Source of the DNA: an uncultured Ignavibacteria bacterium
GTDB taxonomy: Bacteria; Bacteroidota; Ignavibacteria; Tepidaquicellales; Tepidaquicellaceae
Direction of reading: 5' to 3'
DNA: 64,000 nucleotides
Assembly (NCBI GenBank): GCA_937974175.1
Contig: CALJIG010000027.1
Location: 8,809-72,808, forward strand
The notes below the pieces were generated by a model, which saw only the letters and a list, made by a program, of their open reading frames with translations, ran no database searches and was not told the DNA's origin. The position numbers were made by a program, and so were the translations under genes. Numbering within the stretch: position 1 is the first letter of the stretch; every line of letters begins with the position of its first letter. Positions 1 to 31,576 of the stretch are shown here, piece after piece.

Positions 1-1971
1 AACAAACGCTCCGAATGCAGTTAAGTTTGTTACTATCCCCGGCAGCTTCATTCCGGGTTTTAAGTCTTCCATCTTTTCAATTCCTTCGGCAAATTTAAAG
101 AGCTCGAATTTTTGCCTCGGGTCGCGTCCGGGTTTTGCAAGCTCATCCATAATATCGGTAAGCGTAGGTAAGCCGACTGTATCAGATACATATTTATTTA
201 TATCAATTTTTTTTCTTAACTCGTCTGAGTGCATAAGTTCTTCAACTGTGCATCCGGCATCTTTAGCCATTTGATAAACAATGTCATAGCTTTCAGGGTG
301 AACTGCGGATGAGTCTAACGGATTTTTTGCTTCACGTATTCTTAAAAATCCCGCTGCCTGCTCAAATGCTTTGTTGCCGAGTCGCGGTACTTTTAAAACT
401 TCATCGCGTGATTTGAAAGCGCCTTTATCATTTCTGTAGTCTATAATGCTCTTTGCAAGCTTTGGTCCGAGCCCTGATACGTATGTTAATAATTCTTTAC
501 TGGCAGTGTTCAACTCTACACCGACTTTATTAACACAGCTTACTACTACGTCATCAAGTTTATCTTTCAAAGCCTTCTGGTCAACATCATGTTGATACTG
601 GCCAACACCTATAGACTTCGCATCAATTTTTACTAACTCAGCGAGCGGGTCCATCAATCTTCTTCCTATAGAAACCGACCCCCTTACTGTAACATCGTAA
701 TCAGGAAATTCCTCACGAGCAACATCTGATGCAGAATAAATAGATGCTCCGGATTCGTTAACCATAATGGTAGGAATATCCCTTCCGAAGTCAACGGTCT
801 TTACAAATGTTTCAGTCTCGCGGCTTGCAGTTCCGTTTCCGATTGCAATCACATCAGGTCTATATTCTTCAGCAAGCTTTATTAATTTTTCCGCTGCTAA
901 TTTTTTCATCGCTTCTGATTGTGTCGGATAAATATTGTCATTCTTTAAAAGTTTTCCGTTCTCATCAAGGCATACGACTTTGCAGCCTGTTCTGAATCCC
1001 GGGTCAATTGCCAAAACTCTTTTTTCTCCCAGTGGAGCAGCAAGTAATAGCTGTCTTAAGTTATCTGCAAAAACAGCAATCGCTTCTTTATCCGCAGTCT
1101 CTTTGCTGATAACTCTTGCTTCAGTTTCCATCGAAGGTCCGAGTAGTCTTTTATATGAATCATCTATAGCAAGCTTGACCTGATTTGCCGAATCGTTATT
1201 TCCTTTTACGAATACTGATTGAAGTAAATCAATTGCATCTTCCGTTTCAGGCTCTGCTTTAAGAGATAAAAATCCTTCGTTCTCGCCGCGTCTCATTGCT
1301 AAAACTCTGTGTGAAGGAGCAGATGAAATCGGTTCGCGCCATTCGTAATAATCTTTATATTTAATTCCTTCTTCTTCTTTCCCTGAAACTACTTTCGATA
1401 TGAATATACCTTTCTTCTGATACAAGTCTCTCATCTTTTCACGCGCTTCCTGATTTTCGCTTACCCACTCGGCAATTATATCCCTTGCTCCCTGTAATGC
1501 TTCTTCAACTGTGTTCACTCCTTTCTCAGCATCGATATATTTTTCTGCTTCCGCAGTAATATCTATATTCTCTTGTGAAAAAATAGATTCACCGAGTGGT
1601 TCCAGACCTTTTTCTTTTGCCACAGTGGCTTTCGTTCTTCTCTTTGGTCTGTATGGCAGATAAATATCTTCAAGTTCAGTCAGAGTAATAGCAGATTCTA
1701 TTTTTCCTTTTAATTCATCTGTAAGAAGTTTCCTTTCTTCCAGCGAGTTAAGTATTGCCTGTCTTCTTTTATCAAGTTCTTCAAGCTGGGAAATTCTGTC
1801 TCTTATTGCAGCAATTACAACTTCATCAAGACTTCCCGTAACTTCTTTTCTGTATCGCGCTATGAAAGGTACTGTTGCATCTTCGCTTAATAACTGCGCA
1901 ACAGCTAATACCTGCTTTTGAGTAATGGATAATTCGGCTGCAATTTGTTTTGTGTGTAAGGGGTTCATCAT
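1..1971 (-). CDS. tex: Tex-family RNA-binding transcription accessory protein (C-terminus runs off the window; only the start of the S1 domain is present)
   Basis: Open minus-strand frame from ATGATG at 1971 down to base 1 (657 codons). It is absent from the ORF track because it is truncated. My translation starts MMNPLHTKQIAAELSITQKQV..FIARYRKE.. and continues with a YqgF-like segment LAIDPGFRTGCK and HhH-like segments. It ends ..KLPGIVTNLTAFGAFV, which is the S1 domain start. Confidence 0.85.
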   Translation of the reverse strand, partial: MMNPLHTKQIAAELSITQKQVLAVAQLLSEDATVPFIARYRKEVTGSLDEVVIAAIRDRISQLEELDKRRQAILNSLEERKLLTDELKGKIESAITLTELEDIYLPYRPKRRTKATVAKEKGLEPLGESIFSQENIDITAEAEKYIDAEKGVNTVEEALQGARDIIAEWVSENQEAREKMRDLYQKKGIFISKVVSGKEEEGIKYKDYYEWREPISSAPSHRVLAMRRGENEGFLSLKAEPETEDAIDLLQSVFVKGNNDSANQVKLAIDDSYKRLLGPSMETEARVISKETADKEAIAVFADNLRQLLLAAPLGEKRVLAIDPGFRTGCKVVCLDENGKLLKNDNIYPTQSEAMKKLAAEKLIKLAEEYRPDVIAIGNGTASRETETFVKTVDFGRDIPTIMVNESGASIYSASDVAREEFPDYDVTVRGSVSIGRRLMDPLAELVKIDAKSIGVGQYQHDVDQKALKDKLDDVVVSCVNKVGVELNTASKELLTYVSGLGPKLAKSIIDYRNDKGAFKSRDEVLKVPRLGNKAFEQAAGFLRIREAKNPLDSSAVHPESYDIVYQMAKDAGCTVEELMHSDELRKKIDINKYVSDTVGLPTLTDIMDELAKPGRDPRQKFELFKFAEGIEKMEDLKPGMKLPGIVTNLTAFGAFV

Positions 1972-22139: not shown

Positions 22140-24761
22140 ATGGCACGCACTGCGAAAATAAAAGCAAAAGAAACCCGTCGCTCTAAACCACAGAAAGAGG
22201 ACTTTGAAATCTCTGCCGACGCTAAAAAGCAGATGCTGGGATTTTTATTAATTGTCCTTAGCGTTTTACTTTTTCTTTCGCTTGTAACTTTCTCACCCAA
22301 AGATTCTACATTAATAGATACATTCGAGTTAAGGAAATTATTCAATTTTAAAAATGCCGAGCAATGCTATAACTGGCTTGGCATCGGCGGCGCTTATGTA
22401 TCCGCCTTTTTCATCAGAGATTTCTTCGGCTACTATTCAATTTTTATTCCCGTAATTTTGTTTGCAATCGGCTTTCCTCTCCTATGGAAAAAACCCTTAG
22501 GGCGTTATATTCAGTTCAGCATCTTTGCATTTTTTATGATGGTGATATTGGGAATATCTACCGGAATTTTAAAAATTATTGCCGGGACGAATACAGGCTT
22601 TCTTCAGTATGCAGGCGGCGCAGGCGATACGTGGGCAACAATTTTTTACAAGATACTCGGCGGATTCGGAGCATCAGTTGTATTTATACTTTTATTTGTG
22701 CTCGATGCATTTTTAATGATAGACGGAAGCATTGTAAAAACTCTTGCCCGTATAAAATTATTATTTTTAAGATTTATTGAAAGCTTTAAGAAGCATGAAG
22801 AAGTACTATCAAATAAACAGATAGAAAAAGAAGCCGAACGAAAAGCAGTTGAAGACGATAAAATAAAATTAGGATTTATACCGGCTGAACAAGACCCGAT
22901 AAAAGCGGAGAAAGACAGAATTAAAAAATTGCGCGGAGCAAAAACGCTGCCTGTTCAGGAGATTGATTTAATTAAAGAGACTGAAATTAATCGTCCGAAA
23001 GAAATTGAATCTGCATTTATAAATCTTGAAAGAGACCCTTTTGAAGTTATTCCGAAAGATGGAATTAAACCTGAATTAAATGATGAAATAAAAGAAGAGC
23101 CTAAGCTAAAACAAAAAGTAAAATCAGAAAGGCTGAAGAAGAAGGAAGCGCCTAACTTTGAAGACGCATTTGTCGGTACGGAAATAAATAAAGGTGATAA
23201 AACTGAAATTGATATAAATCCCGAAAACTCAAATGAGCTTGAAGGACTTATGGGAAAAGACGAAGATGATTTTATAGAAGAAAAGCTTGAAGGATATAAA
23301 TTCCCGGGTATCGATTTATTAATCGAGCAGACAAAGGAAGAGCTTGAAGTAATTCCCGATGAAGAATTAACCGGCAACGGAAGATTATTACAGGAAAAGT
23401 TATTAAAGTTCGGAATTGAAATTGAAAAAGTATTCGCGACTCCCGGACCGGTTGTTACTTTATATGAACTTGTACCGGCTGCCGATGTAAAACTTTCCAA
23501 AATAGAATCATTACAGGATGATATTGCCCTTGCCATGAAGGCGAAGGGAATAAGATTAATTATTCCTATTCCGGGCAAAGGAACTGTCGGTGTTGAAATC
23601 CCGAACCGCAAAGCGCAGATGGTGAGAATACGCTCGCTTGTTTCATCGCAGAGATATGCTTCAACAGATAAGCTTCTTCCGATTGCTATGGGTAAAACTA
23701 TAGACGGCGAAGTGTTTATTGATGATCTTGCAAAAATGCCGCACGTATTGATTGCCGGAGCAACAGGCTCGGGTAAGTCAGTTGGTATTAATACAATTAT
23801 TGCAAGTTTGATTTACAAAATGCATCCTTCGGATTTAAAGTTTGTGATGATTGACCCGAAGAAAATTGAGCTTAACTTATACTCTAAATTAAAGAAGCAT
23901 TATCTTGCTTCTTCCAGTGATATTAATGAAAGCATTGTTACAAGTCCGCAGAATGCAGTGAGCATTTTAAAAAGCCTTACTGTAGAAATGGATAACCGAT
24001 ATGATAAACTTGCCAATGCAGGAGTACGAAACATCGAAGCTTACAATGTAAAGTATAAAGAAGGAAAGCTTACAAGTAATGAGTTTATACGACATAAAAA
24101 AATGCCGTACATAGTTGTTATAATCGATGAGCTTGCCGACCTTATGATTACCGCTAAAAAAGATATTGAAGAGCCTATTGCACGTCTTGCGCAGATGGCG
24201 AGAGCTGTTGGTATTCACTTAGTCGTTGCAACGCAGAGACCATCGACTGACGTTATTACCGGTGTTATTAAAGCAAACTTCCCTGTGAGAATTGCATATC
24301 AGGTTGCTTCGCAGATTGATTCACGAACTATTATGGATATGAAAGGCGCTGAGCAGCTGCTGAGAAACGGAGACATGCTTTACATGTCATCTTCATCACA
24401 GAAGCCGATTAGAATTCAGAACGCATTTATCTCCACTGAAGAGTGCGAGCTTATAGCAGAGTTTGTTGATGCGCAGGTCGGGTTTAAAAAACCTTATTTA
24501 CTTCCTTCACTTATAGAGAGAAGAACATTTAACGGCGAAGATGAAGAGAGAGATGAATTGTTTGAAGAAGCAGCAAGACTTGTTGTGAAGCTCGGACAGT
24601 GTTCGACATCTACATTGCAAAGAAGGCTGAAGCTCGGGTATGCAAGAGCAGCACGCATTGTTGACCAGATGGAAACTGCAGGAATTGTCGGCAGCGGCAA
24701 CGGCGCCAAAGGCAGAGAGATACTTGTCGGTGAAGAGGATTTAGAAGGAATATTTTATTAA
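22140..24761 (+). CDS. ftsK: DNA translocase FtsK/SpoIIIE
   Basis: N-terminal TM helices and a Glu/Lys-rich linker. Walker A GATGSGKSV and Walker B VVIIDELADL. Also VATQRPS and the C-terminal gamma wHTH (STSTLQRRLKLGYARAARI). Confidence 0.95.
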   Translation: MARTAKIKAKETRRSKPQKEDFEISADAKKQMLGFLLIVLSVLLFLSLVTFSPKDSTLIDTFELRKLFNFKNAEQCYNWLGIGGAYVSAFFIRDFFGYYSIFIPVILFAIGFPLLWKKPLGRYIQFSIFAFFMMVILGISTGILKIIAGTNTGFLQYAGGAGDTWATIFYKILGGFGASVVFILLFVLDAFLMIDGSIVKTLARIKLLFLRFIESFKKHEEVLSNKQIEKEAERKAVEDDKIKLGFIPAEQDPIKAEKDRIKKLRGAKTLPVQEIDLIKETEINRPKEIESAFINLERDPFEVIPKDGIKPELNDEIKEEPKLKQKVKSERLKKKEAPNFEDAFVGTEINKGDKTEIDINPENSNELEGLMGKDEDDFIEEKLEGYKFPGIDLLIEQTKEELEVIPDEELTGNGRLLQEKLLKFGIEIEKVFATPGPVVTLYELVPAADVKLSKIESLQDDIALAMKAKGIRLIIPIPGKGTVGVEIPNRKAQMVRIRSLVSSQRYASTDKLLPIAMGKTIDGEVFIDDLAKMPHVLIAGATGSGKSVGINTIIASLIYKMHPSDLKFVMIDPKKIELNLYSKLKKHYLASSSDINESIVTSPQNAVSILKSLTVEMDNRYDKLANAGVRNIEAYNVKYKEGKLTSNEFIRHKKMPYIVVIIDELADLMITAKKDIEEPIARLAQMARAVGIHLVVATQRPSTDVITGVIKANFPVRIAYQVASQIDSRTIMDMKGAEQLLRNGDMLYMSSSSQKPIRIQNAFISTEECELIAEFVDAQVGFKKPYLLPSLIERRTFNGEDEERDELFEEAARLVVKLGQCSTSTLQRRLKLGYARAARIVDQMETAGIVGSGNGAKGREILVGEEDLEGIFY

Positions 24762-24777
24762 AATCTAACTTATAATT

Positions 24778-25419
24778 ATGGCAAATGAAGATATTAAGTA
24801 TTTAACAGACGAAGTAGCTGGACTCTTAAATTATATTCGTAATTTAATTTTAAACAAACAATTTGATTTCAATAATAAGCAACAAAGGCAAAAATGGGAT
24901 GAAATGGTAGATAAAGCTTTTGAGTTACATAAGTTAGTTAATCCTAAGCATAGTAAAACAATGTTAAGGAATCGAGGTGTTGATCCTAATACTCGCGAAT
25001 TTTATAATCATATTCATCCTATTGAAGATTTATTAGCTATTATTGCTAATCCTAATATTAATGATATTCCAGAAGATAAAACTCTAGGTACTGAATTTTC
25101 CATTAAAATATTTTCCCGACGTTGGAATCATGAAGATGTTTATAAATTTTTAAGAACATTTAATGGATGGTCAATTTCTAATTTAAGTGGAAAAGTCCAA
25201 TGTGATAAAAAAGGCTATCCTGCTCTCTATATCATGTTAAACCATGATTCAATAAACTATCCTGAATCGTTACCAAATTATTTGGAATGGTTATGGGATC
25301 AAGCTCAGGAAATAGGGTTGGATTATAACCAAGTTCAGGAAGAACTAAGTAGATTAGCGGATTGGATAAATATATGTGAAAAAAACTCTCCTAAAGGAAT
25401 TTTTGAGGATTATAAATAA
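24778..25419 (+). CDS. Hypothetical protein, no recognisable family (first gene of the post-ftsK cassette)
   Basis: 213-aa ORF with an ATG start 16 nt after the ftsK stop. No TM segment or signal peptide. Its stop overlaps the next start (TAATG at 25417-25421). G+C is lower than in the flanks. Confidence 0.6.
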   Translation: MANEDIKYLTDEVAGLLNYIRNLILNKQFDFNNKQQRQKWDEMVDKAFELHKLVNPKHSKTMLRNRGVDPNTREFYNHIHPIEDLLAIIANPNINDIPEDKTLGTEFSIKIFSRRWNHEDVYKFLRTFNGWSISNLSGKVQCDKKGYPALYIMLNHDSINYPESLPNYLEWLWDQAQEIGLDYNQVQEELSRLADWINICEKNSPKGIFEDYK

Positions 25420-26228
25420 TGGACATTAAGAAAATTGAACATATTCCAGAAATTGAAAACTTAAAGATAAAAGGTGCAGAAGAAATTGAAGATTCAAAAA
25501 GGGAAGAAGATGCTAAAAAAATTGAAATTGTTCCTAATCAGGGTGTAGTTACTATTTTAGATATTTTAGGATGGAAAGGAATTTGGCAAAGGAACAAAAA
25601 TGCTCTTCAAGATTTAGACGATCTTGTAAATGAAATAGAAACCTTTGCTTCAAGTTCATCTAAACTTTTTCGAAATTTCCAAAAGTTTGGTGTTGAGGAT
25701 AATATTACGAAAGTAATGGTTATTTCTGATACTATAGTAATAACTACTAGTGCTGAAGAAAATGATTCTAATAATGCTCTTGATTTACATGGACTTATAT
25801 GTAAAGATGCAATCCCTTATTCTATTATGAAAGGAATTCCTGTTAGAGGTGCAACATGTTATGGTGAATTTGCAACAGGAAAAGGAATAAATAGTTTTGT
25901 GGGAAAAGCAGTGGATGAAGCTGCCTCATGGCATGAAACAACAGATTGGATTGGGGTAATAATGACACCTTCAGCTAAATATTCATATCATACTCCTACA
26001 GAAGATTATTGGAAAGAAACCGACCCGCCGTTTAAGAATAATCTGAAATTTTCGACATATGGCGTAAATTGGATTAATCAAGAAGATTTATCTCTACAAG
26101 AAATTTTAAAAGCATTTATTAATTTAAGTCCAATTATTCCGGACATTGTAAATAAATTTGAAAATACAATAAAATTTATTACACCAGAAAAATCAGCAAC
26201 ACATAAAAAAAATATTTTGCCTGAATAA
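25419..26228 (+). CDS. Hypothetical protein with a class-III nucleotidyl-cyclase-like (palm-fold) motif pattern
   Basis: 269 aa with an acidic N-terminal tail. Motifs in order: VVTILDILGWKG, about 55 aa, VMVISDTIVITT, PVRGATCYGEF, FVGKAVDEAASW. Coding status is more certain than the fold assignment. Confidence 0.55.
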   Translation: MDIKKIEHIPEIENLKIKGAEEIEDSKREEDAKKIEIVPNQGVVTILDILGWKGIWQRNKNALQDLDDLVNEIETFASSSSKLFRNFQKFGVEDNITKVMVISDTIVITTSAEENDSNNALDLHGLICKDAIPYSIMKGIPVRGATCYGEFATGKGINSFVGKAVDEAASWHETTDWIGVIMTPSAKYSYHTPTEDYWKETDPPFKNNLKFSTYGVNWINQEDLSLQEILKAFINLSPIIPDIVNKFENTIKFITPEKSATHKKNILPE

Positions 26229-26230
26229 AT

Positions 26231-26986
26231 TTGCCTAACCTCACTTCCATATTATCCTCAATAGATTCTCTTAAATCACGGCTTTATAAAGTTCGTCCGC
26301 TAGATTCTACCCAATTAAAAAAAATAAACGAAGCGATTTTTTTAGAGTACACTTACGATAGCAACCGCATTGAAGGAAATACTTTAACTTTACAGGAAAC
26401 TGCGTTAATTGTTCAGAAGGGAATCACTATATCAGGAAAAAATTTAACGGAGCATCTTGAGGCGATTAATCATTATGAGGCTGTTGAATATATACAGAAA
26501 ATTGTCGCAGACAAAATAGAATTATCGGACAGAATTTTGAAAGATATTCATGCTTTAGTGCTACGGAGCATTGATAAAGATAATGCAGGTAAGTATAGAA
26601 ATGTGAATGTGAAAATCGCGGGCAGCAGATTTATGCCGGCGGACTCTGTGAAAGTAATTGATGAAATGGAAAATTATTTTAAGTGGTATAGTGAAAACAA
26701 AGATAAACTCCACCCTGTTATACTTTCTGCTGAAATGCATGAGCGTCTTGTGACGATTCACCCATTTATTGACGGCAACGGAAGAACGGCAAGGCTGGTT
26801 ATGAATCTGATTTTATTACAAAACGGATTTACAATTGCGAACATAATAGGCTCGAATGAGAATCGTTTGAAATATTACAATGCGCTCGAGAAGTGTCAGG
26901 TGGAAAATATCTGCGAAGATTTTCATGTATTGGTAGCAGAGACTGTGGAAAATTCGTTGCATGAATATTTGAAGATTGCAGAATAA
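26231..26986 (+). CDS. Fic-family AMPylase (class II, with N-terminal autoinhibitory helix)
   Basis: Canonical Fic motif HPFIDGNGRTAR (26759-26794 region). Inhibitory [ST]xxxE[GN] motif SNRIEG (26360-26377). TTG start 2 nt after the upstream stop. Confidence 0.9.
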   Translation: MPNLTSILSSIDSLKSRLYKVRPLDSTQLKKINEAIFLEYTYDSNRIEGNTLTLQETALIVQKGITISGKNLTEHLEAINHYEAVEYIQKIVADKIELSDRILKDIHALVLRSIDKDNAGKYRNVNVKIAGSRFMPADSVKVIDEMENYFKWYSENKDKLHPVILSAEMHERLVTIHPFIDGNGRTARLVMNLILLQNGFTIANIIGSNENRLKYYNALEKCQVENICEDFHVLVAETVENSLHEYLKIAE

Positions 26987-27054
26987 TAGTTAGGTTTATG
27001 CTTTTCCCATTTCATTTTTAAAACCCACTACGTAGATTTACTTATACAATATAG

Positions 27055-27573
27055 TTGAGAAAATTAATCCCAATAATATTACTTACAGTATTCTTTTTTA
27101 ATTTCTCCGGATATCTCTATTTCTTTTATGTAAGCAAGATGGAGATAAATGAAGAAATGAGAGAGATAATCGAAAACGGAATAGAGTTTGAAAAAATAAC
27201 TCTGCATTTAAGCGATTATAAAAAATACATGATTGAAGAGCACGAACTTTTTCTTCACAATAAGCTTTATGATGTTTCAAGAGTAGAAATTGAAGGTGAC
27301 AGCATAATTTTTTATTGCGTTCACGATGAAAAAGAGCAGGATTTATTGGCTTCGCTTGATGTAATATTTGGCATGGGGGAAGAAAACACAAACAACTATA
27401 ATTCAGACTCAGAGCTTTTAAATTTTTTATACATTTCCAGTATAATAAATCAGCAAAACTCGCTGATTAAAAATACAATCTACCTCGCATCCATAAAGGA
27501 ATTTACACTTTTTTTACAATCACAATCTATAACACCAAATACACAACCGCCTAAGCATAATCTATTCACTTAG
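27055..27573 (+). CDS. Small single-pass membrane protein (paralogue of 28723..29277), upstream partner of a TonB-dependent receptor
   Basis: N-terminal TM helix with FNFSGYLYFFYV. Shared blocks EKITLH, GDSIIFYCVHDEKEQDL and the Pro-rich tail PNTQPPKH. TTG start. Confidence 0.6.
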   Translation: MRKLIPIILLTVFFFNFSGYLYFFYVSKMEINEEMREIIENGIEFEKITLHLSDYKKYMIEEHELFLHNKLYDVSRVEIEGDSIIFYCVHDEKEQDLLASLDVIFGMGEENTNNYNSDSELLNFLYISSIINQQNSLIKNTIYLASIKEFTLFLQSQSITPNTQPPKHNLFT

Positions 27574-27616
27574 TTAATCTGTTCTAAAATTTTCTTTAAT
27601 CATTAAAATTTATTTT

Positions 27617-28591
27617 ATCAAAAGAATAATATTTCTTTGCGCAATATTATTCTTGTGCGTTGATTATTGATTTTCGCAAACTGAAAAAGATTCAGTAAAG
27701 TATGAAACGGACAACATATTCATTTCGGGTACACGTACCGAACAAAAACTTATTGATATACCTTATCCTGTAAATCTTATAAATAAAGATGACTTTAAAT
27801 ATTCACGAAACCTCGGAATTAATGACGTACTTTCAACAACGCCGGGGCTCTTCATGCAGTCAAGATACGGAAATCACGATGTCAGAATTTCTATTAGAGG
27901 ATTCGGCAGCCGCTCTAATACAGGCATTCGCGGAGTCAGAATGTTACTCGACGGAATACCGGAATCCGAGCCCGACGGGCAAACAAGAATAGAGGCAATC
28001 GACTTTAATGCTTTAGGCAGCATTGAAGTTACCGGAGGAAATGCTTCAGCATTATATACAAACGCGCAGGGCGGAGTAATCAATTTTATTTCAAATATTA
28101 AATTTTATAAACCACTTGTATGGTCGTTTAATGAATTTGGCGAATTCGCCGAATTTGGAATGAGAAAGAACAGCTTGAAATTTGGAGCTGCTGCTGACAA
28201 ATTACGATTCATGTCGACATTCACTTATTCGAACTATAAAGATTATCGTGAGCACAGTGAGGAGTACCAAAAGATGTTTAACTCGGTACTGGAAACGGAA
28301 GTAGGGTCTGTCTCAACCTTATCTGTGCTCACTAATTTTGTCAGCGGCGCAATCCGTTTGCCCGGCTCATTAAATCTATCACAATTTGAAACAAACCCCA
28401 AACAGGCAAATACTTCCGATAAAGGAAGAGATGCCAAACGCGATTCAAGGAAAGGCAGACTTGCAGTGAGATTTAACTCAACGTTCTGAAAAAGCCTTAA
28501 CAATGAAATTGAAGGAACGTGATATGTGACTATTAAAGACTTCGACAGGACAGCCCGCACATACAGATTATTCGCAAGATACGGTGTATGA
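27617..28591 (+). pseudogene. Decayed 5' fragment (signal peptide, plug, first barrel strands) of a TonB-dependent receptor paralogous to 29450..31576
   Basis: Colinear with the first ~320 codons of the intact copy. Lesions: start codon ATG->ATC (27617-27619), and in-frame TGA at 27668-27670, 28487-28489 and 28520-28522. Homology ends at TGA 28589-28591, so the remaining ~390 codons are missing. Confidence 0.85.
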
Positions 28592-28722
28592 AATTTACTT
28601 TTGCATGCATAATTAAAAAACTTACCTTTCAGGAATTTTTAAAAATGTTTTATCTGTTTTAGAATAGCTTACATAATAAAACAGCAGACTTTAAATTTTA
28701 TTACTTTCATTTAAAATAATTC

Positions 28723-29277
28723 TTGCCTAATTTATATCAAATTCCCTTTACTGTTTTGAAAAAGTTTTTATCGCTTATAATATTATGCGCTTTAGTTTTT
28801 AATTTTTGCGGCTTCCTTGTGTATTTTTATGTGAAGCAGCAGATTATTTATGCTGAAGTCAGAGCAAAAATGAGCGATACTGCCAATCACGAAAAAATTA
28901 CTCTTCATAAAGATGATGTGCAAAAATACGCATGGGGAAGAAAAGAATTAAAGATTGGCGAGAAGCTTTTTGATATTGTAAAGCAGGAGGCAAAAGGCGA
29001 CAGTTTAGTTTTTGATTGTGTTAGAGATAAGAAGGAAGAAGCTTTATATACTACTCTTGAGAAATTTTTAGACCATAAAGAACAGAAGAAAAAGAATAAT
29101 GCAAGTGCTCAGATAAACCTTGTTAAATTTTTATTATTAGTAAGCATACTACCGCAGCAAAATTATGTTACAAATATAGAACCACATCTTATTTCATTTA
29201 AAGAATCTTCCTTAAAGTTTAGTTCTTCGGGGGTTATCCCGGATACACCGCCGCCCCGGCGTCACATCTCCATATAA
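28723..29277 (+). CDS. Small single-pass membrane protein (paralogue of 27055..27573), upstream partner of a TonB-dependent receptor
   Basis: TM helix with FNFCGFLVYFYV. Shared blocks EKITLH, GDSLVFDCVRDKKEEAL and the Pro-rich tail PDTPPPRRH. The exact start codon is uncertain (TTG). Confidence 0.6.
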   Translation: MPNLYQIPFTVLKKFLSLIILCALVFNFCGFLVYFYVKQQIIYAEVRAKMSDTANHEKITLHKDDVQKYAWGRKELKIGEKLFDIVKQEAKGDSLVFDCVRDKKEEALYTTLEKFLDHKEQKKKNNASAQINLVKFLLLVSILPQQNYVTNIEPHLISFKESSLKFSSSGVIPDTPPPRRHISI

Positions 29278-29449
29278 TATAATTTAACCAATTTATTGAA
29301 GTAATGTCCTGTTCAGGATTTATTTCAATCTTCATTTTATTTTAAAGTAATATTCTGGACAGGTGTTATTGCTTTCGGCTTTTGCTATTGGCATTAATAA
29401 TATCTGTACGCAGTATTATGTATAACTTATAAATATTAAAAATAATTTT

Positions 29450-31576
29450 ATGAAAAAAATATTCTTCATATTTTTTATAACTTTACTTTTTAGTGTGTCA
29501 TCTATGGCTCAAACCGATAAAGACACCGTAAAGTATAAAACAGATGATGTAATTATAACCGGAACAAGAACGGAAAAAAAATTAATCGACATTCCTTATC
29601 CTGTAGATTTAATAGAGAAAGAAGACTTTCGATACTCACGAAACATGGGGATCAATGACGTATTAGGCACAACACCGGGATTATTTATGCAGTCAAGATA
29701 CGGCAACCATGATGTAAGAATTTCAATAAGAGGTTTCGGCAGCCGTTCTAATACAGGTATAAGAGGTGTGAGAATTTTACTCGACGGAATACCTGAGTCA
29801 GAACCTGACGGACAGACAAGAATAGAAGCAATTGATTTTAACGCGCTTGGAAGCATTGAAGTTGTCCGCGGAAATGCATCTGCATTATATACGAACGCGC
29901 CGGGCGGAGTAATAAACTTCATTAATGATATTAAGTTTTATAAACCTTTTGCGTGGTCTTTTAATGAGATAGGTGAGTTCGGCATGCGTAAAAATACTAT
30001 TAAAGCAGGTGTTGCAACAAATTCGCTGAGATTTATGACATCATTTACTTATACAAATTACAATGGTTATAGAGACCATAGTAATGAGTATCAGAAAATA
30101 GTAAACTCGGTTTTGGAAGCTGAAGTAGGAAGAAACTCAAACTTAAGTGTGCTGACAAATTTCGTAAGCGGCGCAATCCGTCTTCCGGGTTCATTAAATT
30201 TAACTCAGTATAATGAAAATCCGCTGCAGGCAAATGCAACAGATAAATCACGTGATGCAAAAAGAGATTCGAAAAAAGGAAGACTTGCAGTAAGATTTAA
30301 TAATACATTTGGAAAGAGCTTGAATAATGTTATTGAAGGTACGGGATATCTGACTGTAAAAGATTTTGACAGGACAGCAAAAACATACCGTTTATTTTCA
30401 AGATATGGTCTCGGCGGTTCATTAAGATATGTAAATAAATCTGAAATTGCCGGACGTGATAACGAATTTTCAGTTGGCGGAGATTTGTTCTATCAAACAG
30501 GTCCTATTGAAGAATTCGAAAACATCGGCGGAACAAGAGGCGATATTCTACTTGCTATTTCCGATGAAACCATCAGCAATGCAGGATTTTATTTCTCCAA
30601 TCAGTTCAGCATTGTTAGAGGCAAGCTAGATTTTCTTTTCACAGGAAGATATGACAATGTGAACTTCGATGTAGTTGACCGCTTAGCCGGAATAAGAGAT
30701 GCAACAAGAAACTTTAACCGCTTTACTCCTAAGTTTGCTTTGAACTACAAGCTTACTCCTTATGCAGCTATTTATGGTTCATTCGGATTAGGTTTCGATA
30801 CTCCCGCAGGAAATGAACTTGATAACTACCCGTTATCTTCAGACGGAAATCTTGGCGCTTTAAATCCTGATTTGAATGCTCAAACATCAAAGAACTTTGA
30901 ATTAGGAACAAAGGGAAATATTTTAAATCACGGAGGTAAATGGTTCAAAGATAACGTTTATGAACTTGTGTTTTACAGATTACAGATTGAAGATGAAATA
31001 GTTCCGTTCATTGTAAGTAATGCAGCATATTTCCGAAATGCGGCAAAAAGTACCAGAAACGGTATTGAGTTCGGGTTTACTACAAATATAATAGGCGGAC
31101 TGAAATCAAAAACGGCGTACAATTTTTCTGATTTTAAATACGATACTTATACAGCGCTTATATACGATGCCAATGGTAATGCAACAACAAAAGATTACTC
31201 AGGAAATACGGCTCCTTCAGTACCTAAACATTATTTATCTTCAGATCTAATTTATAATTACAAAATTACACCAAGCGTAACGGCATTTGCAAAATTCAAT
31301 TACACTTATGTTGAAGGAATGTTCACAGATGACGGGAACTCAGCTAAAACAGAATCATACATTCTGTTAAACAGCGGAATCGGTATGGAAGTTACTGTTG
31401 ATAATTTTAACCTGATTGCAAATGCAGGTCTTGGAAATCTGACAGATAAAAAATATGTTGCCTATATAAATATTAATGCAGATCCCGACAGAGCAGTTGA
31501 CAGAAGAACATATTATGAATCAGGCGTGCCAAAAAATTTCTTCGCAGGATTAAATCTTGGTTATATATTCAGATAA
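29450..31576 (+). CDS. TonB-dependent outer-membrane receptor
   Basis: Signal peptide and a TonB-box-like DDVIITGTR. Plug motifs (RGFGSRS, LLDGIP, IEVVRG). 22-strand-sized barrel with a C-terminal aromatic residue (..LGYIFR). Confidence 0.9.
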   Translation: MKKIFFIFFITLLFSVSSMAQTDKDTVKYKTDDVIITGTRTEKKLIDIPYPVDLIEKEDFRYSRNMGINDVLGTTPGLFMQSRYGNHDVRISIRGFGSRSNTGIRGVRILLDGIPESEPDGQTRIEAIDFNALGSIEVVRGNASALYTNAPGGVINFINDIKFYKPFAWSFNEIGEFGMRKNTIKAGVATNSLRFMTSFTYTNYNGYRDHSNEYQKIVNSVLEAEVGRNSNLSVLTNFVSGAIRLPGSLNLTQYNENPLQANATDKSRDAKRDSKKGRLAVRFNNTFGKSLNNVIEGTGYLTVKDFDRTAKTYRLFSRYGLGGSLRYVNKSEIAGRDNEFSVGGDLFYQTGPIEEFENIGGTRGDILLAISDETISNAGFYFSNQFSIVRGKLDFLFTGRYDNVNFDVVDRLAGIRDATRNFNRFTPKFALNYKLTPYAAIYGSFGLGFDTPAGNELDNYPLSSDGNLGALNPDLNAQTSKNFELGTKGNILNHGGKWFKDNVYELVFYRLQIEDEIVPFIVSNAAYFRNAAKSTRNGIEFGFTTNIIGGLKSKTAYNFSDFKYDTYTALIYDANGNATTKDYSGNTAPSVPKHYLSSDLIYNYKITPSVTAFAKFNYTYVEGMFTDDGNSAKTESYILLNSGIGMEVTVDNFNLIANAGLGNLTDKKYVAYININADPDRAVDRRTYYESGVPKNFFAGLNLGYIFR

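What the first reader, a model, noticed from the sequence alone, without database searches (positions are those of the whole stretch)
25419..26228. Orphan 269-aa protein reproduces the strand order and both metal-binding Asp of class III nucleotidyl cyclases
Seen in sequence: an acidic ~40-aa tail is followed by VVTILD48ILGWKG, about 55 mostly helical residues, KVMVISD104TIVITT, IPVRGATCYGEF, SFVGKAVDEAASWHE and DWIGVIMTPSA. Established knowledge: class III adenylyl/guanylyl cyclases, and the cyclases of the Pycsar anti-phage system, share a fixed motif order. It runs hydrophobic strand-D-I-x-G-[FW]-[ST] (metal Asp 1), x-[GS]-D-x-hydrophobic strand (metal Asp 2), R-[IV]-G-x-x-x-G, then G-x-x-V-N-x-A-[AS]-R. 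The ORF keeps this order, comparable spacing and both Asp residues (codons 25560-25562 and 25728-25730). It replaces the Asn and Arg of the last motif (VDEAASW). Inference: a divergent palm-fold enzyme (nucleotide cyclase, or oligonucleotide or other nucleotidyl transferase) that could generate a signal. I matched this by eye only, and the similarity is weak.
Basis: partly seen in the sequence, partly recalled or inferred. Interest (0 to 1): 0.75.

Follow-up and report, generated by a model that had tools for sequence, protein, structure and literature searches.

The report
Divergent cyclase-fold enzyme in defence islands
The 269-aa protein is not an orphan: it belongs to a large, unnamed protein family with the fold and two metal-binding aspartates of class III nucleotide cyclases, it is usually paired with one unknown partner gene, and it often sits among anti-phage defence genes, so it is a good candidate for a new immune enzyme.

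Summary
The "orphan" label is wrong: the family has at least 340 close homologues and 1,173 cluster representatives across bacteria and Methanosarcina.

No Pfam, NCBIfam, PADLOC or PDB sequence model matches it. A confident AlphaFold model (pLDDT 86) has the β-α-β-β-α-β palm order, and all 50 top PDB structure hits are class III adenylyl/guanylyl cyclases. D48 and D104 are invariant and fall on the two metal-Asp positions. The cyclase Asn and Arg are replaced by invariant D166 and by S170.

In 55 of 80 genome loci the gene follows, or is fused to, a PF21648 "integron cassette protein" gene, which here lies at 24778-25419. Other members carry N-terminal TPR repeats or a C-terminal Toprim-like domain, and one partner homologue carries TIR instead.

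The pair recurs between hsdS and hsdR of type I R-M operons. It also lies next to DarTG, GmrSD, BREX, McrBC and, in this window, a SoFic-like Fic gene.

Best reading: the NTP-using catalytic subunit of an undescribed defence-island module. Its product and its role in defence are untested.

The parts
24778..25419 (+). Partner gene (213 aa). It has an N-terminal helical domain with an invariant His/Asp-rich cluster (H58, N65, H78, H80, D84, N95; near-invariant H59, R66, E83, D96, D97, D100) and a C-terminal PF21648 'integron cassette protein' (Vch_cass3-like) α+β domain.
   Evidence: Pfam PF21648 E 4.5e-9. PDB 3fy6 by sequence E 6e-5 and by structure E 1.6e-5. Alignment A3 gives the invariant residues. 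The model has pLDDT 90. The gene lies immediately upstream on the same strand, or is fused, in 55 of 80 loci.
25419..26228 (+). Cyclase-fold (class III CHD-like) gene of 269 aa. Its ATG overlaps the partner's TAA (TAATG).
   Evidence: AF2 model. Foldseek top 50 all class III cyclases. Family of at least 1,173 cluster representatives.
25419..25535 (+). Unconserved, charged N-terminal ~39 residues. They are linker-like and absent from most homologues.
   Evidence: Homologues align from about residue 40. pLDDT is 56-64.
25545..25580 (+). β1 motif VVTILD48ILGWKG. It holds putative metal Asp 1 (D48, codon 25560-25562) and the invariant G51-W52-K53-G54.
   Evidence: Invariant columns. D48 lies at the C-terminal end of strand 38-49. 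It aligns to the FSDIVGFT Asp of CyaC in segment profile alignments that are not significant.
25710..25748 (+). β2-turn-β3 hairpin KVMVISD104TIVITT. It holds putative metal Asp 2 (D104, codon 25728-25730) within the invariant S103-D104-T105.
   Evidence: Invariant columns. Strands 98-102 and 105-111 flank S103-D104. It aligns to the FVGDAIMA Asp of CyaC.
25836..25871 (+). β4 motif IPVRGATCYGEF, with invariant R143-G144 (A145 nearly invariant, and invariant in A5) and invariant G149. It corresponds to the R-I-G-I-H-x-G strand of cyclases.
   Evidence: Strand 142-153. Local alignment (P0169).
25893..25937 (+). Helix motif SFVGKAVD166E167AASWHE. It occupies the position of the cyclase G-x-x-V-N-x-A-A-R-L-E motif, with Asn replaced by invariant D166 (codons 25914-25919 for D166-E167) and Arg replaced by S170.
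   Evidence: Best hhalign local alignment of the deep profiles (window 144-175 against CyaC 115-147). HMM alignment (P0210). Invariance.
25944..26183 (+). Family-specific C-terminal region (res 176-255) with invariant W177, G179, P184, K206, W218 and K246.
   Evidence: Model elements E180-182, H184-189, E198-201, E213-216, H226-234 and H241-254.
26231..26986 (+). Adjacent Fic-domain gene (251 aa, HPFIDGNGRTAR motif), SoFic-like. It starts 2 nt after the cyclase-fold gene. It is a neighbour in this genome only and is not part of the conserved module.
   Evidence: Pfam Fic 3e-22. PADLOC SoFic 9.6e-36 and PDC-S04. A Fic is found in only 1 of 80 related loci. Junction. No terminator-like site in 24600-27200.

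Best explanation
ORF 25419-26228 encodes a member of a large, unnamed and highly divergent branch of the class III nucleotidyl-cyclase (CHD, palm) fold.

Shown: it keeps the two carboxylates of the two-metal-ion centre (D48 on β1, D104 on the β2-β3 hairpin). It has replaced the canonical transition-state Asn and Arg with an invariant Asp-Glu pair (D166-E167) and a Ser, and it has gained an invariant G-W-K-G after the first Asp.

Inferred: it is an active, Mg/Mn-dependent enzyme that uses NTPs, but its chemistry or product is unlikely to be that of a textbook cAMP/cGMP cyclase.

Shown: it is the constant catalytic component of a compact module whose N-terminal or upstream element varies. That element is usually the PF21648-type protein encoded at 24778-25419, with overlapping stop and start, and sometimes it is fused. 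In other lineages it is TPR repeats or another ~200-aa domain. One partner homologue carries a TIR domain in place of the cyclase-fold domain.

Inferred: the variable N-terminal element senses or regulates, and the cyclase-fold domain is the output enzyme.

Shown: the module repeatedly sits inside or beside known anti-phage systems.

Inferred: it is an anti-phage (or anti-mobile-element) defence module. On activation it converts NTPs into a nucleotide product. That product would either signal to an effector (a Toprim-like nuclease domain is fused in some members) or harm the cell or phage directly through NTP consumption or a toxic nucleotide.
For: Fold. The AF2 model has pLDDT 86.4 and pTM 0.81 with a β-α-β-β-α-β order. 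There are 110 PDB hits at E<=1e-3 and the top 50 are all class III AC/GC domains. Top hits in the viral structure library are also cyclase-domain proteins.

Catalytic residues. D48, G51-W52-K53-G54, S103-D104-T105, R143-G144, D166 and W171 are invariant across 52 close members and 14 distant ones. Three independent segment alignments all choose the cyclase register, although none is significant. A distant TPR-fused member touches PF00211 at E 0.0066, across the stretch between the two Asp motifs.

Family size and spread. 1,173 cluster representatives. Eighty loci span many phyla, including Methanosarcina.

Module. The partner lies directly upstream on the same strand in 53 loci and is fused in 2, giving 55 of 80. 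Further fusions are P0042, P0049, P0052 and P0072.

Context. The pair lies between hsdS and hsdR in 6 of 80 loci. Examples are HsdM-GmrSD-HsdS-[pair]-DarT-DarG-HsdR, Methanosarcina HsdM-HsdS-[pair]-HsdR, BREX PglZ-BrxL-[pair], a BrxR/SMC-type system-[pair]-McrBC, a prophage end with AbiEii and an integrase, and flanking AAA_15/AAA_21 ATPases with a serine recombinase. In the window the neighbour is a SoFic-like Fic. The hsdS-hsdR slot is a published hotspot for defence genes (PMC12255303).
Against: No activity, product or phage phenotype is known. The canonical Asn and Arg needed for class III catalysis are absent, and the base-specifying Lys position (4 residues before D104) is not conserved, so NTP cyclisation is not assured.

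Sequence-profile methods give no significant link to cyclases.

About 25 of 80 loci lack the partner. Only about 10 of 80 loci showed a defence neighbour with my limited query set, and some neighbours are housekeeping genes.

PADLOC 2.0 has no model for either protein. No effector is evident in most loci, so the route from signal to effector is speculative. The family is absent from sequenced phages and rare on plasmids.
Confidence: 0.55

Rival explanations
1. A Pycsar-like signalling pair. The cyclase-fold protein senses infection itself and makes a cyclic mononucleotide. The PF21648-type partner is the receptor and effector, with its conserved His/Asp-rich N-terminal pocket binding the nucleotide or acting as a hydrolase.
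For: The fold is that of the class III and Pycsar cyclases. The operon is two genes with overlapping stop and start. The partner has an invariant His/Asp/Asn/Arg cluster suggestive of a ligand or metal site. The TIR swap in P0291 would fit if TIR and the cyclase fold were both signal generators, as in Thoeris (my knowledge).
Against: No PADLOC Pycsar model matches. The partner resembles no known nucleotide-sensor or effector fold and matches only 3fy6, whose function is unknown. In other members the partner position is taken by TPR repeats, a typical sensor rather than an effector. Thirty per cent of loci lack the partner. Generator-effector fusions in one chain are unusual. The Asn and Arg of cyclases are missing.
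Confidence: 0.2
2. A toxin-antitoxin or addiction-type module, or another mobile-element maintenance function. The cyclase-fold protein would be a nucleotidyl-transferring or NTP-consuming toxin and the upstream partner its antitoxin, with no dedicated anti-phage role.
For: The upstream small gene overlaps the downstream enzyme gene, as in type II TA operons. The pair co-occurs with DarTG, AbiE and Fic/Doc-type genes in the same slots. The partner domain was first seen in Vibrio integron cassettes, which often hold TA genes (PMC3548836, for the origin; the TA content of integrons is my knowledge).
Against: Stable partner-enzyme fusions and TPR-enzyme fusions do not fit a labile antitoxin. Solo enzyme genes occur in about 30% of loci, which a free toxin should not tolerate. 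Many TA systems in these slots are themselves defence systems, so this rival overlaps with the main reading.
Confidence: 0.12
3. A catalytically dead pseudo-cyclase that serves as a scaffold or ligand-binding domain, or an ordinary housekeeping cAMP/cGMP cyclase that is merely divergent.
For: Loss of the transition-state Asn and Arg is what is seen in inactive cyclase-homology domains (my knowledge). One member is annotated as guanylate-cyclase-domain protein.
Against: Both metal Asp residues, plus about 20 further positions clustered on the active-site elements, are invariant across phyla, which argues for retained chemistry. Patchy distribution, a local GC dip (0.305 against about 0.36), island contexts and the lack of any Pfam or NCBIfam cyclase match argue against a housekeeping cyclase.
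Confidence: 0.08

Closest known systems
Class III adenylyl/guanylyl cyclase catalytic domains (Pfam PF00211; e.g. Spirulina CyaC 1wc0/1wc3, Pseudomonas CyaB 3r5g, soluble guanylate cyclase 3uvj/4ni2)
   Same: Same predicted fold and element order, and these are the best structural matches. An Asp lies at the end of β1 and another at the β2-β3 turn. A G follows 3 residues after Asp 1 and an aromatic 4 residues after. There is an R-G strand motif and a G-x-x-hydrophobic-X-x-A-A helix motif in the same order.
   Different: No significant sequence-profile similarity. The Asn is replaced by invariant Asp166 (followed by Glu167) and the Arg by Ser170. An invariant Lys53 follows the aromatic residue. 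There is no conserved base-specifying Lys. The family has its own ~80-residue conserved C-terminal region. It is not fused to the usual signalling domains and is instead coupled to a PF21648 partner.
Pycsar anti-phage system (PycC pyrimidine cyclase plus TIR or TM effector)
   Same: A cyclase-fold enzyme in a compact operon found in defence islands. A TIR domain appears in one related architecture (P0291).
   Different: No PADLOC Pycsar model hits either protein. The partner is neither TIR nor a membrane protein: there is no TM-like segment in the extensions, and it is a soluble helical + α/β protein. The catalytic Asn and Arg are absent. No cyclic-nucleotide-binding domain is present.
GGDEF diguanylate cyclases and the Cas10/mCpol palm domains (as in CBASS-like and Panoptes-type signalling)
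   Same: They share the βαββαβ palm with two acidic metal ligands. The D-x-x-x-aromatic-K spacing after the first Asp (D48...W52-K53) recalls the D-x-D-x-F-K motif of GGDEF domains (my recollection, not tested).
   Different: None of these appears among the 50 best structural matches. There is no GGDEF or GGDD hairpin motif (S-D-T instead) and no Pfam GGDEF hit.
Vch_cass3 (PDB 3FY6), an integron cassette protein of Vibrio cholerae. This comparison is for the partner protein.
   Same: The C-terminal half of the partner (res ~105-205) matches by sequence (E 6e-5) and by structure (E 1.6e-5, target TM 0.75). Vch_cass3 is a dimeric two-layer α+β protein (PMC3548836).
   Different: Vch_cass3 is a solo 126-aa protein of unknown function that lacks the ~100-residue His/Asp-rich helical domain. 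No link to a cyclase-fold enzyme was described.

Membership tests
Class III nucleotidyl cyclase (CHD) superfamily, fold level | βαββαβ palm core with the cyclase-type C-terminal elements, and closest structural neighbours that are CHDs | tested here: met
   AF2 model with pLDDT 86.4 and the right element order. Foldseek top 50 all class III AC/GC, E about 4e-7, target TM 0.6-0.68.
Class III nucleotidyl cyclase (CHD) superfamily | Two metal-binding Asp residues, one at the end of β1 and one in the β2-β3 hairpin | tested here: met
   D48 and D104 are invariant. They sit at the end of strand 38-49 and between strands 98-102 and 105-111. They align to the CyaC metal Asp residues in segment profile alignments that are not significant. 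The 3D distance could not be measured.
Class III nucleotidyl cyclase, catalytically canonical member (Pfam PF00211) | Transition-state Asn and Arg in the G-x-x-V-N-x-A-x-R helix motif | tested here: not met
   The equivalent positions are D166 (invariant) and S170.
Class III nucleotidyl cyclase, catalytically canonical member (Pfam PF00211) | Match to the family profile above its curated threshold | tested here: not met
   No PF00211 hit for the window protein at E<=10. One of 52 members hits at E 0.075. L072 scores 16.5 bits against a cut-off of 21.9. hhalign probability is below 1%.
Class III nucleotidyl cyclase | Base-specifying Lys/Glu four residues before metal Asp 2, and its partner residue | tested here: not met
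   Position 100 is M in the window protein, K in some homologues and variable overall (alignment).
Class III nucleotidyl cyclase | Head-to-tail dimer with the active site at the interface, and NTP converted to cNMP + PPi | not testable with these tools
   No multimer prediction, coordinates or biochemistry were available.
Pycsar defence system | A PycC-type cyclase recognised by Pycsar models, plus an adjacent TIR or TM effector with a cNMP-binding domain | tested here: not met
   No PADLOC hit for the cyclase-fold protein or the partner. The partner is a soluble PF21648-type protein.
Anti-phage defence system (generic) | Recurrent location in defence islands across unrelated lineages | tested here: met
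   The pair lies in the hsdS-hsdR slot in 6 of 80 loci. It lies next to DarTG, GmrSD, BREX, McrBC, AbiE or AAA_15/21 genes in 6 of 6 further lineages sampled. The neighbour in the window is SoFic-like.
Anti-phage defence system (generic) | Protection against phage when expressed | not testable with these tools
   This needs experiment.
PF21648 / Vch_cass3 family (partner protein) | Match to the PF21648 profile above threshold and the 3FY6-like fold | tested here: met
   36.9 bits against a cut-off of 27. Foldseek 3fy6 E 1.6e-5.

The most novel reading that the evidence does not exclude
The pair founds a new kind of anti-phage system. A cyclase-fold enzyme with a re-engineered active site (two metal Asp, plus an invariant Asp-Glu and Lys in place of the Asn and Arg) would make a nucleotide product not made by known class III, Pycsar, CBASS or Cas10 enzymes, or would act directly as an NTP-consuming effector. 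It would be controlled by a previously function-less 'integron cassette protein' domain acting as the infection sensor.
Probability: 0.3. Interest if true: 0.8.

Novelty: new variant of a known kind. Interest (0 to 1): 0.62.

Why it matters
Nucleotide-making enzymes sit at the centre of bacterial immunity (CBASS, Pycsar, type III CRISPR, Thoeris, Panoptes) and of its animal counterparts. This family is large, phylogenetically broad and unnamed. It has no model in Pfam, NCBIfam or PADLOC 2.0.

It keeps the metal centre of cyclases but has swapped the residues that define cyclase chemistry. It is genetically locked to a partner domain whose only known relative is a structural-genomics protein of unknown function.

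If it is active, it would add a new enzyme and product class to immune nucleotide signalling or nucleotide depletion. It would also give PF21648/Vch_cass3 its first function and explain a recurrent passenger of type I R-M operons. The Bacillus cereus-group homologues (P0100 with partners P0286/P0288) make it directly testable.

Tried and rejected
- Sequence-model searches of the 269-aa protein found nothing useful: Pfam, PADLOC and PDB phmmer gave no hit and NCBIfam only a chance-level match (E 0.036). A family profile against PDB gave only chance hits.
- hhalign of the family against class III cyclases was not significant with a thin profile, in forced global mode or with deep profiles of 334 and 124 sequences. 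Only the register of the sub-threshold alignments was informative.
- The Fic gene as a third component was rejected, since it is present in 1 of 80 related loci.
- A conserved third gene was rejected. The most frequent other neighbour occurs in 6 of 80 loci and is HsdR.
- Hidden divergent partners in the 25 partner-less loci were rejected: there was no hit at E<=1 with a partner HMM.
- The second ~200-aa N-terminal domain (P0236 group) as a divergent partner is unresolved. hhalign is collinear but gives probability 5%.
- Membrane effectors were not found: no TM-like segment in any C-terminal extension.
- The partner's N-terminal domain has no structural match in PDB.
- Phage carriage was not found, and plasmid carriage is rare, with 3 records.
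- The literature gave no paper describing the pair, PF21648 with a cyclase, or the family. Payne et al. 2024 on embedded defences does not mention a cyclase in its main text. Non-open-access literature was not searchable.
Full report
**1. Observation**

ORF 25419-26228 (+) exists and encodes 269 aa. The codons for D48 and D104 are 25560-25562 and 25728-25730.

The first ~40 residues are charged (about 12 D/E and 8 K/R) and unconserved. They are missing from most homologues and have low confidence in the model. The ATG overlaps the stop of the upstream ORF (TAATG). Many related loci use the same -1 or -4 overlap, so the long start is probably real and this segment is a linker.

The title word "orphan" is wrong. 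The word-indexed search found 340 homologues at E<=1e-3. The exhaustive search of 50%-identity cluster representatives found 1,173, of which 352 are at E<=1e-10. Eighty loci recovered from species-representative genomes span Bacteroidota, Verrucomicrobiota, Lentisphaerota, Planctomycetota, Bacillota, Myxococcota, Zixibacteria, Fusobacteriota and Methanosarcina.

**2. What the protein is**

No curated sequence model recognises it. Pfam, PADLOC and a PDB sequence search give no hit for the window protein, and NCBIfam only a chance-level one (E 0.036). A family profile finds only chance hits in PDB. Of 52 members scanned singly, one touches PF00211 at E 0.075.

The family alignment is highly constrained. 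Invariant residues are D48, G51-W52-K53-G54, S103-D104-T105, H124, P141, R143-G144, G149, G162, D166-E167, A169, W171, W177 and G179, among others. Most of them, apart from H124, P141, E167 and W177, are still invariant when the most distant branches are added.

AlphaFold2 on this alignment gives a confident model (pLDDT 86.4, pTM 0.81). Its order is β1(38-49), α(52-58, 62-84), β2(98-102), β3(105-111), α(114-137), β4(142-153), α(163-174). D48 closes β1 and S103-D104 form the hairpin turn.

Foldseek against PDB returns 110 hits at E<=1e-3. The 50 best are all class III adenylyl or guanylyl cyclase catalytic domains, including CyaC, CyaB, Cya2, soluble and receptor guanylate cyclases, soluble AC and mammalian AC (E about 4e-7, target TM 0.6-0.68). 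The best viral-library hits are also cyclase-domain proteins.

**3. Residue register**

I built a real class III profile, first from three PDB chains and then from 120 database homologues. hhalign finds no significant similarity to the family with the thin profile, the deep profile or a forced global alignment. The relationship is beyond sequence-profile reach.

The best sub-threshold alignments of three separate segments all choose the same collinear register:

| Family segment | Cyclase segment | Key equivalences |
|---|---|---|
| GVVTILD48ILGWKG | ITILFSDIVGFT | D48 on metal Asp 1 |
| KVMVISD104TIV | VDKFVGDAIM | D104 on metal Asp 2 |
| G162-KAV-D166-EAA-S170-W | G-PSV-N-IAA-R-L | D166 on Asn, S170 on Arg |

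Taken with the strand positions and the invariance, I accept D48 and D104 as the metal-Asp equivalents. I also accept that the cyclase Asn and Arg are replaced by an invariant Asp (followed by Glu) and by a Ser.

The base-specifying Lys position, four residues before D104, is not conserved. I could not measure the D48-D104 distance, because model coordinates are not exposed.

**4. Conserved partner and architectures**

The upstream ORF 24778-25419 (213 aa) matches Pfam PF21648, "integron cassette protein", and PDB 3FY6 (Vch_cass3) by sequence and by structure. Vch_cass3 is a dimeric α+β protein of unknown function (PMC3548836).

The partner's N-terminal ~100 residues form a helical domain with no structural relative in PDB. 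That domain has an invariant or near-invariant cluster: H58, H59, N65, R66, H78, H80, E83, D84, N95, D96, D97 and D100.

In 53 of 80 loci a homologue lies immediately upstream on the same strand, usually overlapping by 1-20 nt. In 2 more it is fused, N-terminal to the cyclase-fold domain. Further fusions are in the protein database (P0042, P0049, P0052 and P0072).

Among 341 family members analysed:
- 12 carry the partner as an N-terminal fusion.
- 10 carry a different ~200-aa N-terminal domain, possibly a very divergent partner (hhalign collinear but probability 5%).
- 4 carry N-terminal TPR repeats.
- 12 have C-terminal extensions. Four of these share a Toprim-like signature (VEG...DADT...EAWL) with weak RloB, DUF4276 and DUF3226 matches.

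One partner homologue (P0291) has a TIR_2 domain where the cyclase-fold domain would be. About 25 of 80 loci have no detectable partner, even with a relaxed HMM search. The Fic gene that follows in the window is not conserved, being present in 1 of 80 loci. No other third gene is conserved either.

**5. Genomic context**

In the window the order is ftsK, then the partner 16 nt later, then the cyclase-fold gene (overlapping), then a Fic gene 2 nt later. There is no terminator-like site in between. GC dips to 0.305 against about 0.36 around it. The Fic protein matches the PADLOC SoFic defence model at 9.6e-36.

In six of the 80 loci (Methanosarcina, Lentisphaerota, Limisphaerales, Planctomycetaceae, Verrucomicrobiia) the pair sits on the same strand between hsdS and hsdR of a type I R-M operon.

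Six further lineages, chosen only for having long contigs, all place it next to defence genes:

| Locus | Gene order or neighbours |
|---|---|
| L084 | HsdM-GmrSD-HsdS-[pair]-DarT-DarG-HsdR |
| L089 (Methanosarcina barkeri) | HsdM-HsdS-[pair]-HsdR |
| L093 | BREX PglX-PglZ-BrxL-[pair] |
| L092 | BrxR plus an SMC-type system-[pair]-transposase-McrBC |
| L091 (Polynucleobacter) | prophage end with AbiEii and an integrase |
| L086 (Bacillus) | island with a serine recombinase and AAA_15/AAA_21 ATPases on both sides |

An aggregate Pfam scan of 124 immediate neighbours is led by type I S subunits, ResIII, AAA_21, AbiEii and D12 methylase. It also contains housekeeping genes.

The hsdS-hsdR slot is a published hotspot for embedded defence genes such as DarTG2 (PMC12255303). 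The association is strong but not universal, and my count of defence neighbours across the 80 loci (about 10) is a lower bound from a limited query set. The family is absent from sequenced phages and rare on plasmids.

**6. Mechanism**

Shown:
- The cyclase fold.
- An invariant Asp pair at the metal positions.
- Loss of the Asn and Arg.
- A conserved operon or fusion with a PF21648-type protein.
- Interchangeable N-terminal modules (partner, TPR).
- A defence-island location.

Inferred:
- The protein is an active two-metal enzyme acting on NTPs.
- The invariant K53, D166 and E167 take over phosphate, ribose or third-metal roles, so the product may differ from cAMP or cGMP.
- The N-terminal or upstream module senses or regulates, and the cyclase-fold domain is the output.
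- The output either signals to an effector (fused Toprim-like domain in some members) or is itself harmful through NTP consumption or a toxic nucleotide.

I put 0.55 on the general statement that this is an active NTP-using cyclase-fold enzyme serving as the catalytic core of a defence-island module. Three rivals remain: a Pycsar-like arrangement with the partner as effector (0.2), a toxin-antitoxin or maintenance module (0.12), and a pseudo-enzyme or housekeeping cyclase (0.08).

**7. Comparison and novelty**

The protein works like, and folds like, a class III cyclase. It fails three membership criteria for canonical PF00211 enzymes: the profile score, the Asn and Arg, and the specificity Lys. 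It is not Pycsar by PADLOC models or by partner type.

I found no description of the family or the pair in the searchable literature. I rate it a new variant of a known kind: a distinct, unnamed clade of the cyclase fold in a new two-gene architecture.

Interest is moderate to high. New defence candidates are common, but cyclase-fold ones with an altered active site and a function-less structural-genomics domain as obligate partner are not. The system is also readily testable.

Noticed in passing
window 26231-26986 (+): A Fic-domain protein (HPFIDGNGRTAR) follows the cyclase-fold gene by 2 nt. It matches the PADLOC SoFic model (9.6e-36) and the PDC-S04 candidate models, so this genome has a known single-gene defence candidate in the same apparent operon downstream of ftsK.
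   Followed up: partly
window 27055-31576 (+): This looks like a tandem duplication. A 172-aa ORF plus a Plug-only, truncated TonB-dependent receptor fragment (27854-28489) is followed by a paralogous 184-aa ORF (28723-29277) plus the full-length 708-aa receptor (29450-31576). The receptor N-termini are nearly identical (Pfam labels).
   Followed up: no
P0291 (370 aa; metagenome contig of 1.5 kb): A homologue of the PF21648-type partner is fused to a C-terminal TIR_2 domain in the place where other fusions carry the cyclase-fold domain. The partner module can therefore drive a different output enzyme.
   Followed up: partly
L019:6950-8122, L048:6929-8149; P0127, P0220: These cyclase-fold proteins have a ~150-aa C-terminal extension carrying a Toprim-like signature (VEG...DADT...EAWL) and weak RloB, DUF4276 and DUF3226 matches. 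In the two members seen in genome loci (L019, L048) the PF21648-type partner is still upstream.
   Followed up: partly
L065, L072, L073, L080 (Fusobacterium and relatives): The cyclase-fold domain is fused to 5-11 N-terminal TPR repeats and lacks the usual partner. L072 is the member that comes closest to Pfam Guanylate_cyc (E 0.0066, below threshold).
   Followed up: partly
L084:1451-13440 (also L010, L085): One type I R-M operon carries three embedded passengers in a row: GmrSD between hsdM and hsdS, then the partner/cyclase-fold pair and DarT-DarG between hsdS and hsdR.
   Followed up: no
window 24778-25080 (partner residues ~56-100): The partner's N-terminal helical domain has a dense invariant His/Asn/Arg/Asp cluster (PxHH...NRG...FYxHxHPxED...NDDPxD) and no structural relative in PDB. 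It looks like a metal or ligand site of unknown function.
   Followed up: partly
window 25001-26000: GC content drops to 0.305 against about 0.34-0.39 in flanking kilobases, consistent with recent acquisition of the three-gene block after ftsK.
   Followed up: no
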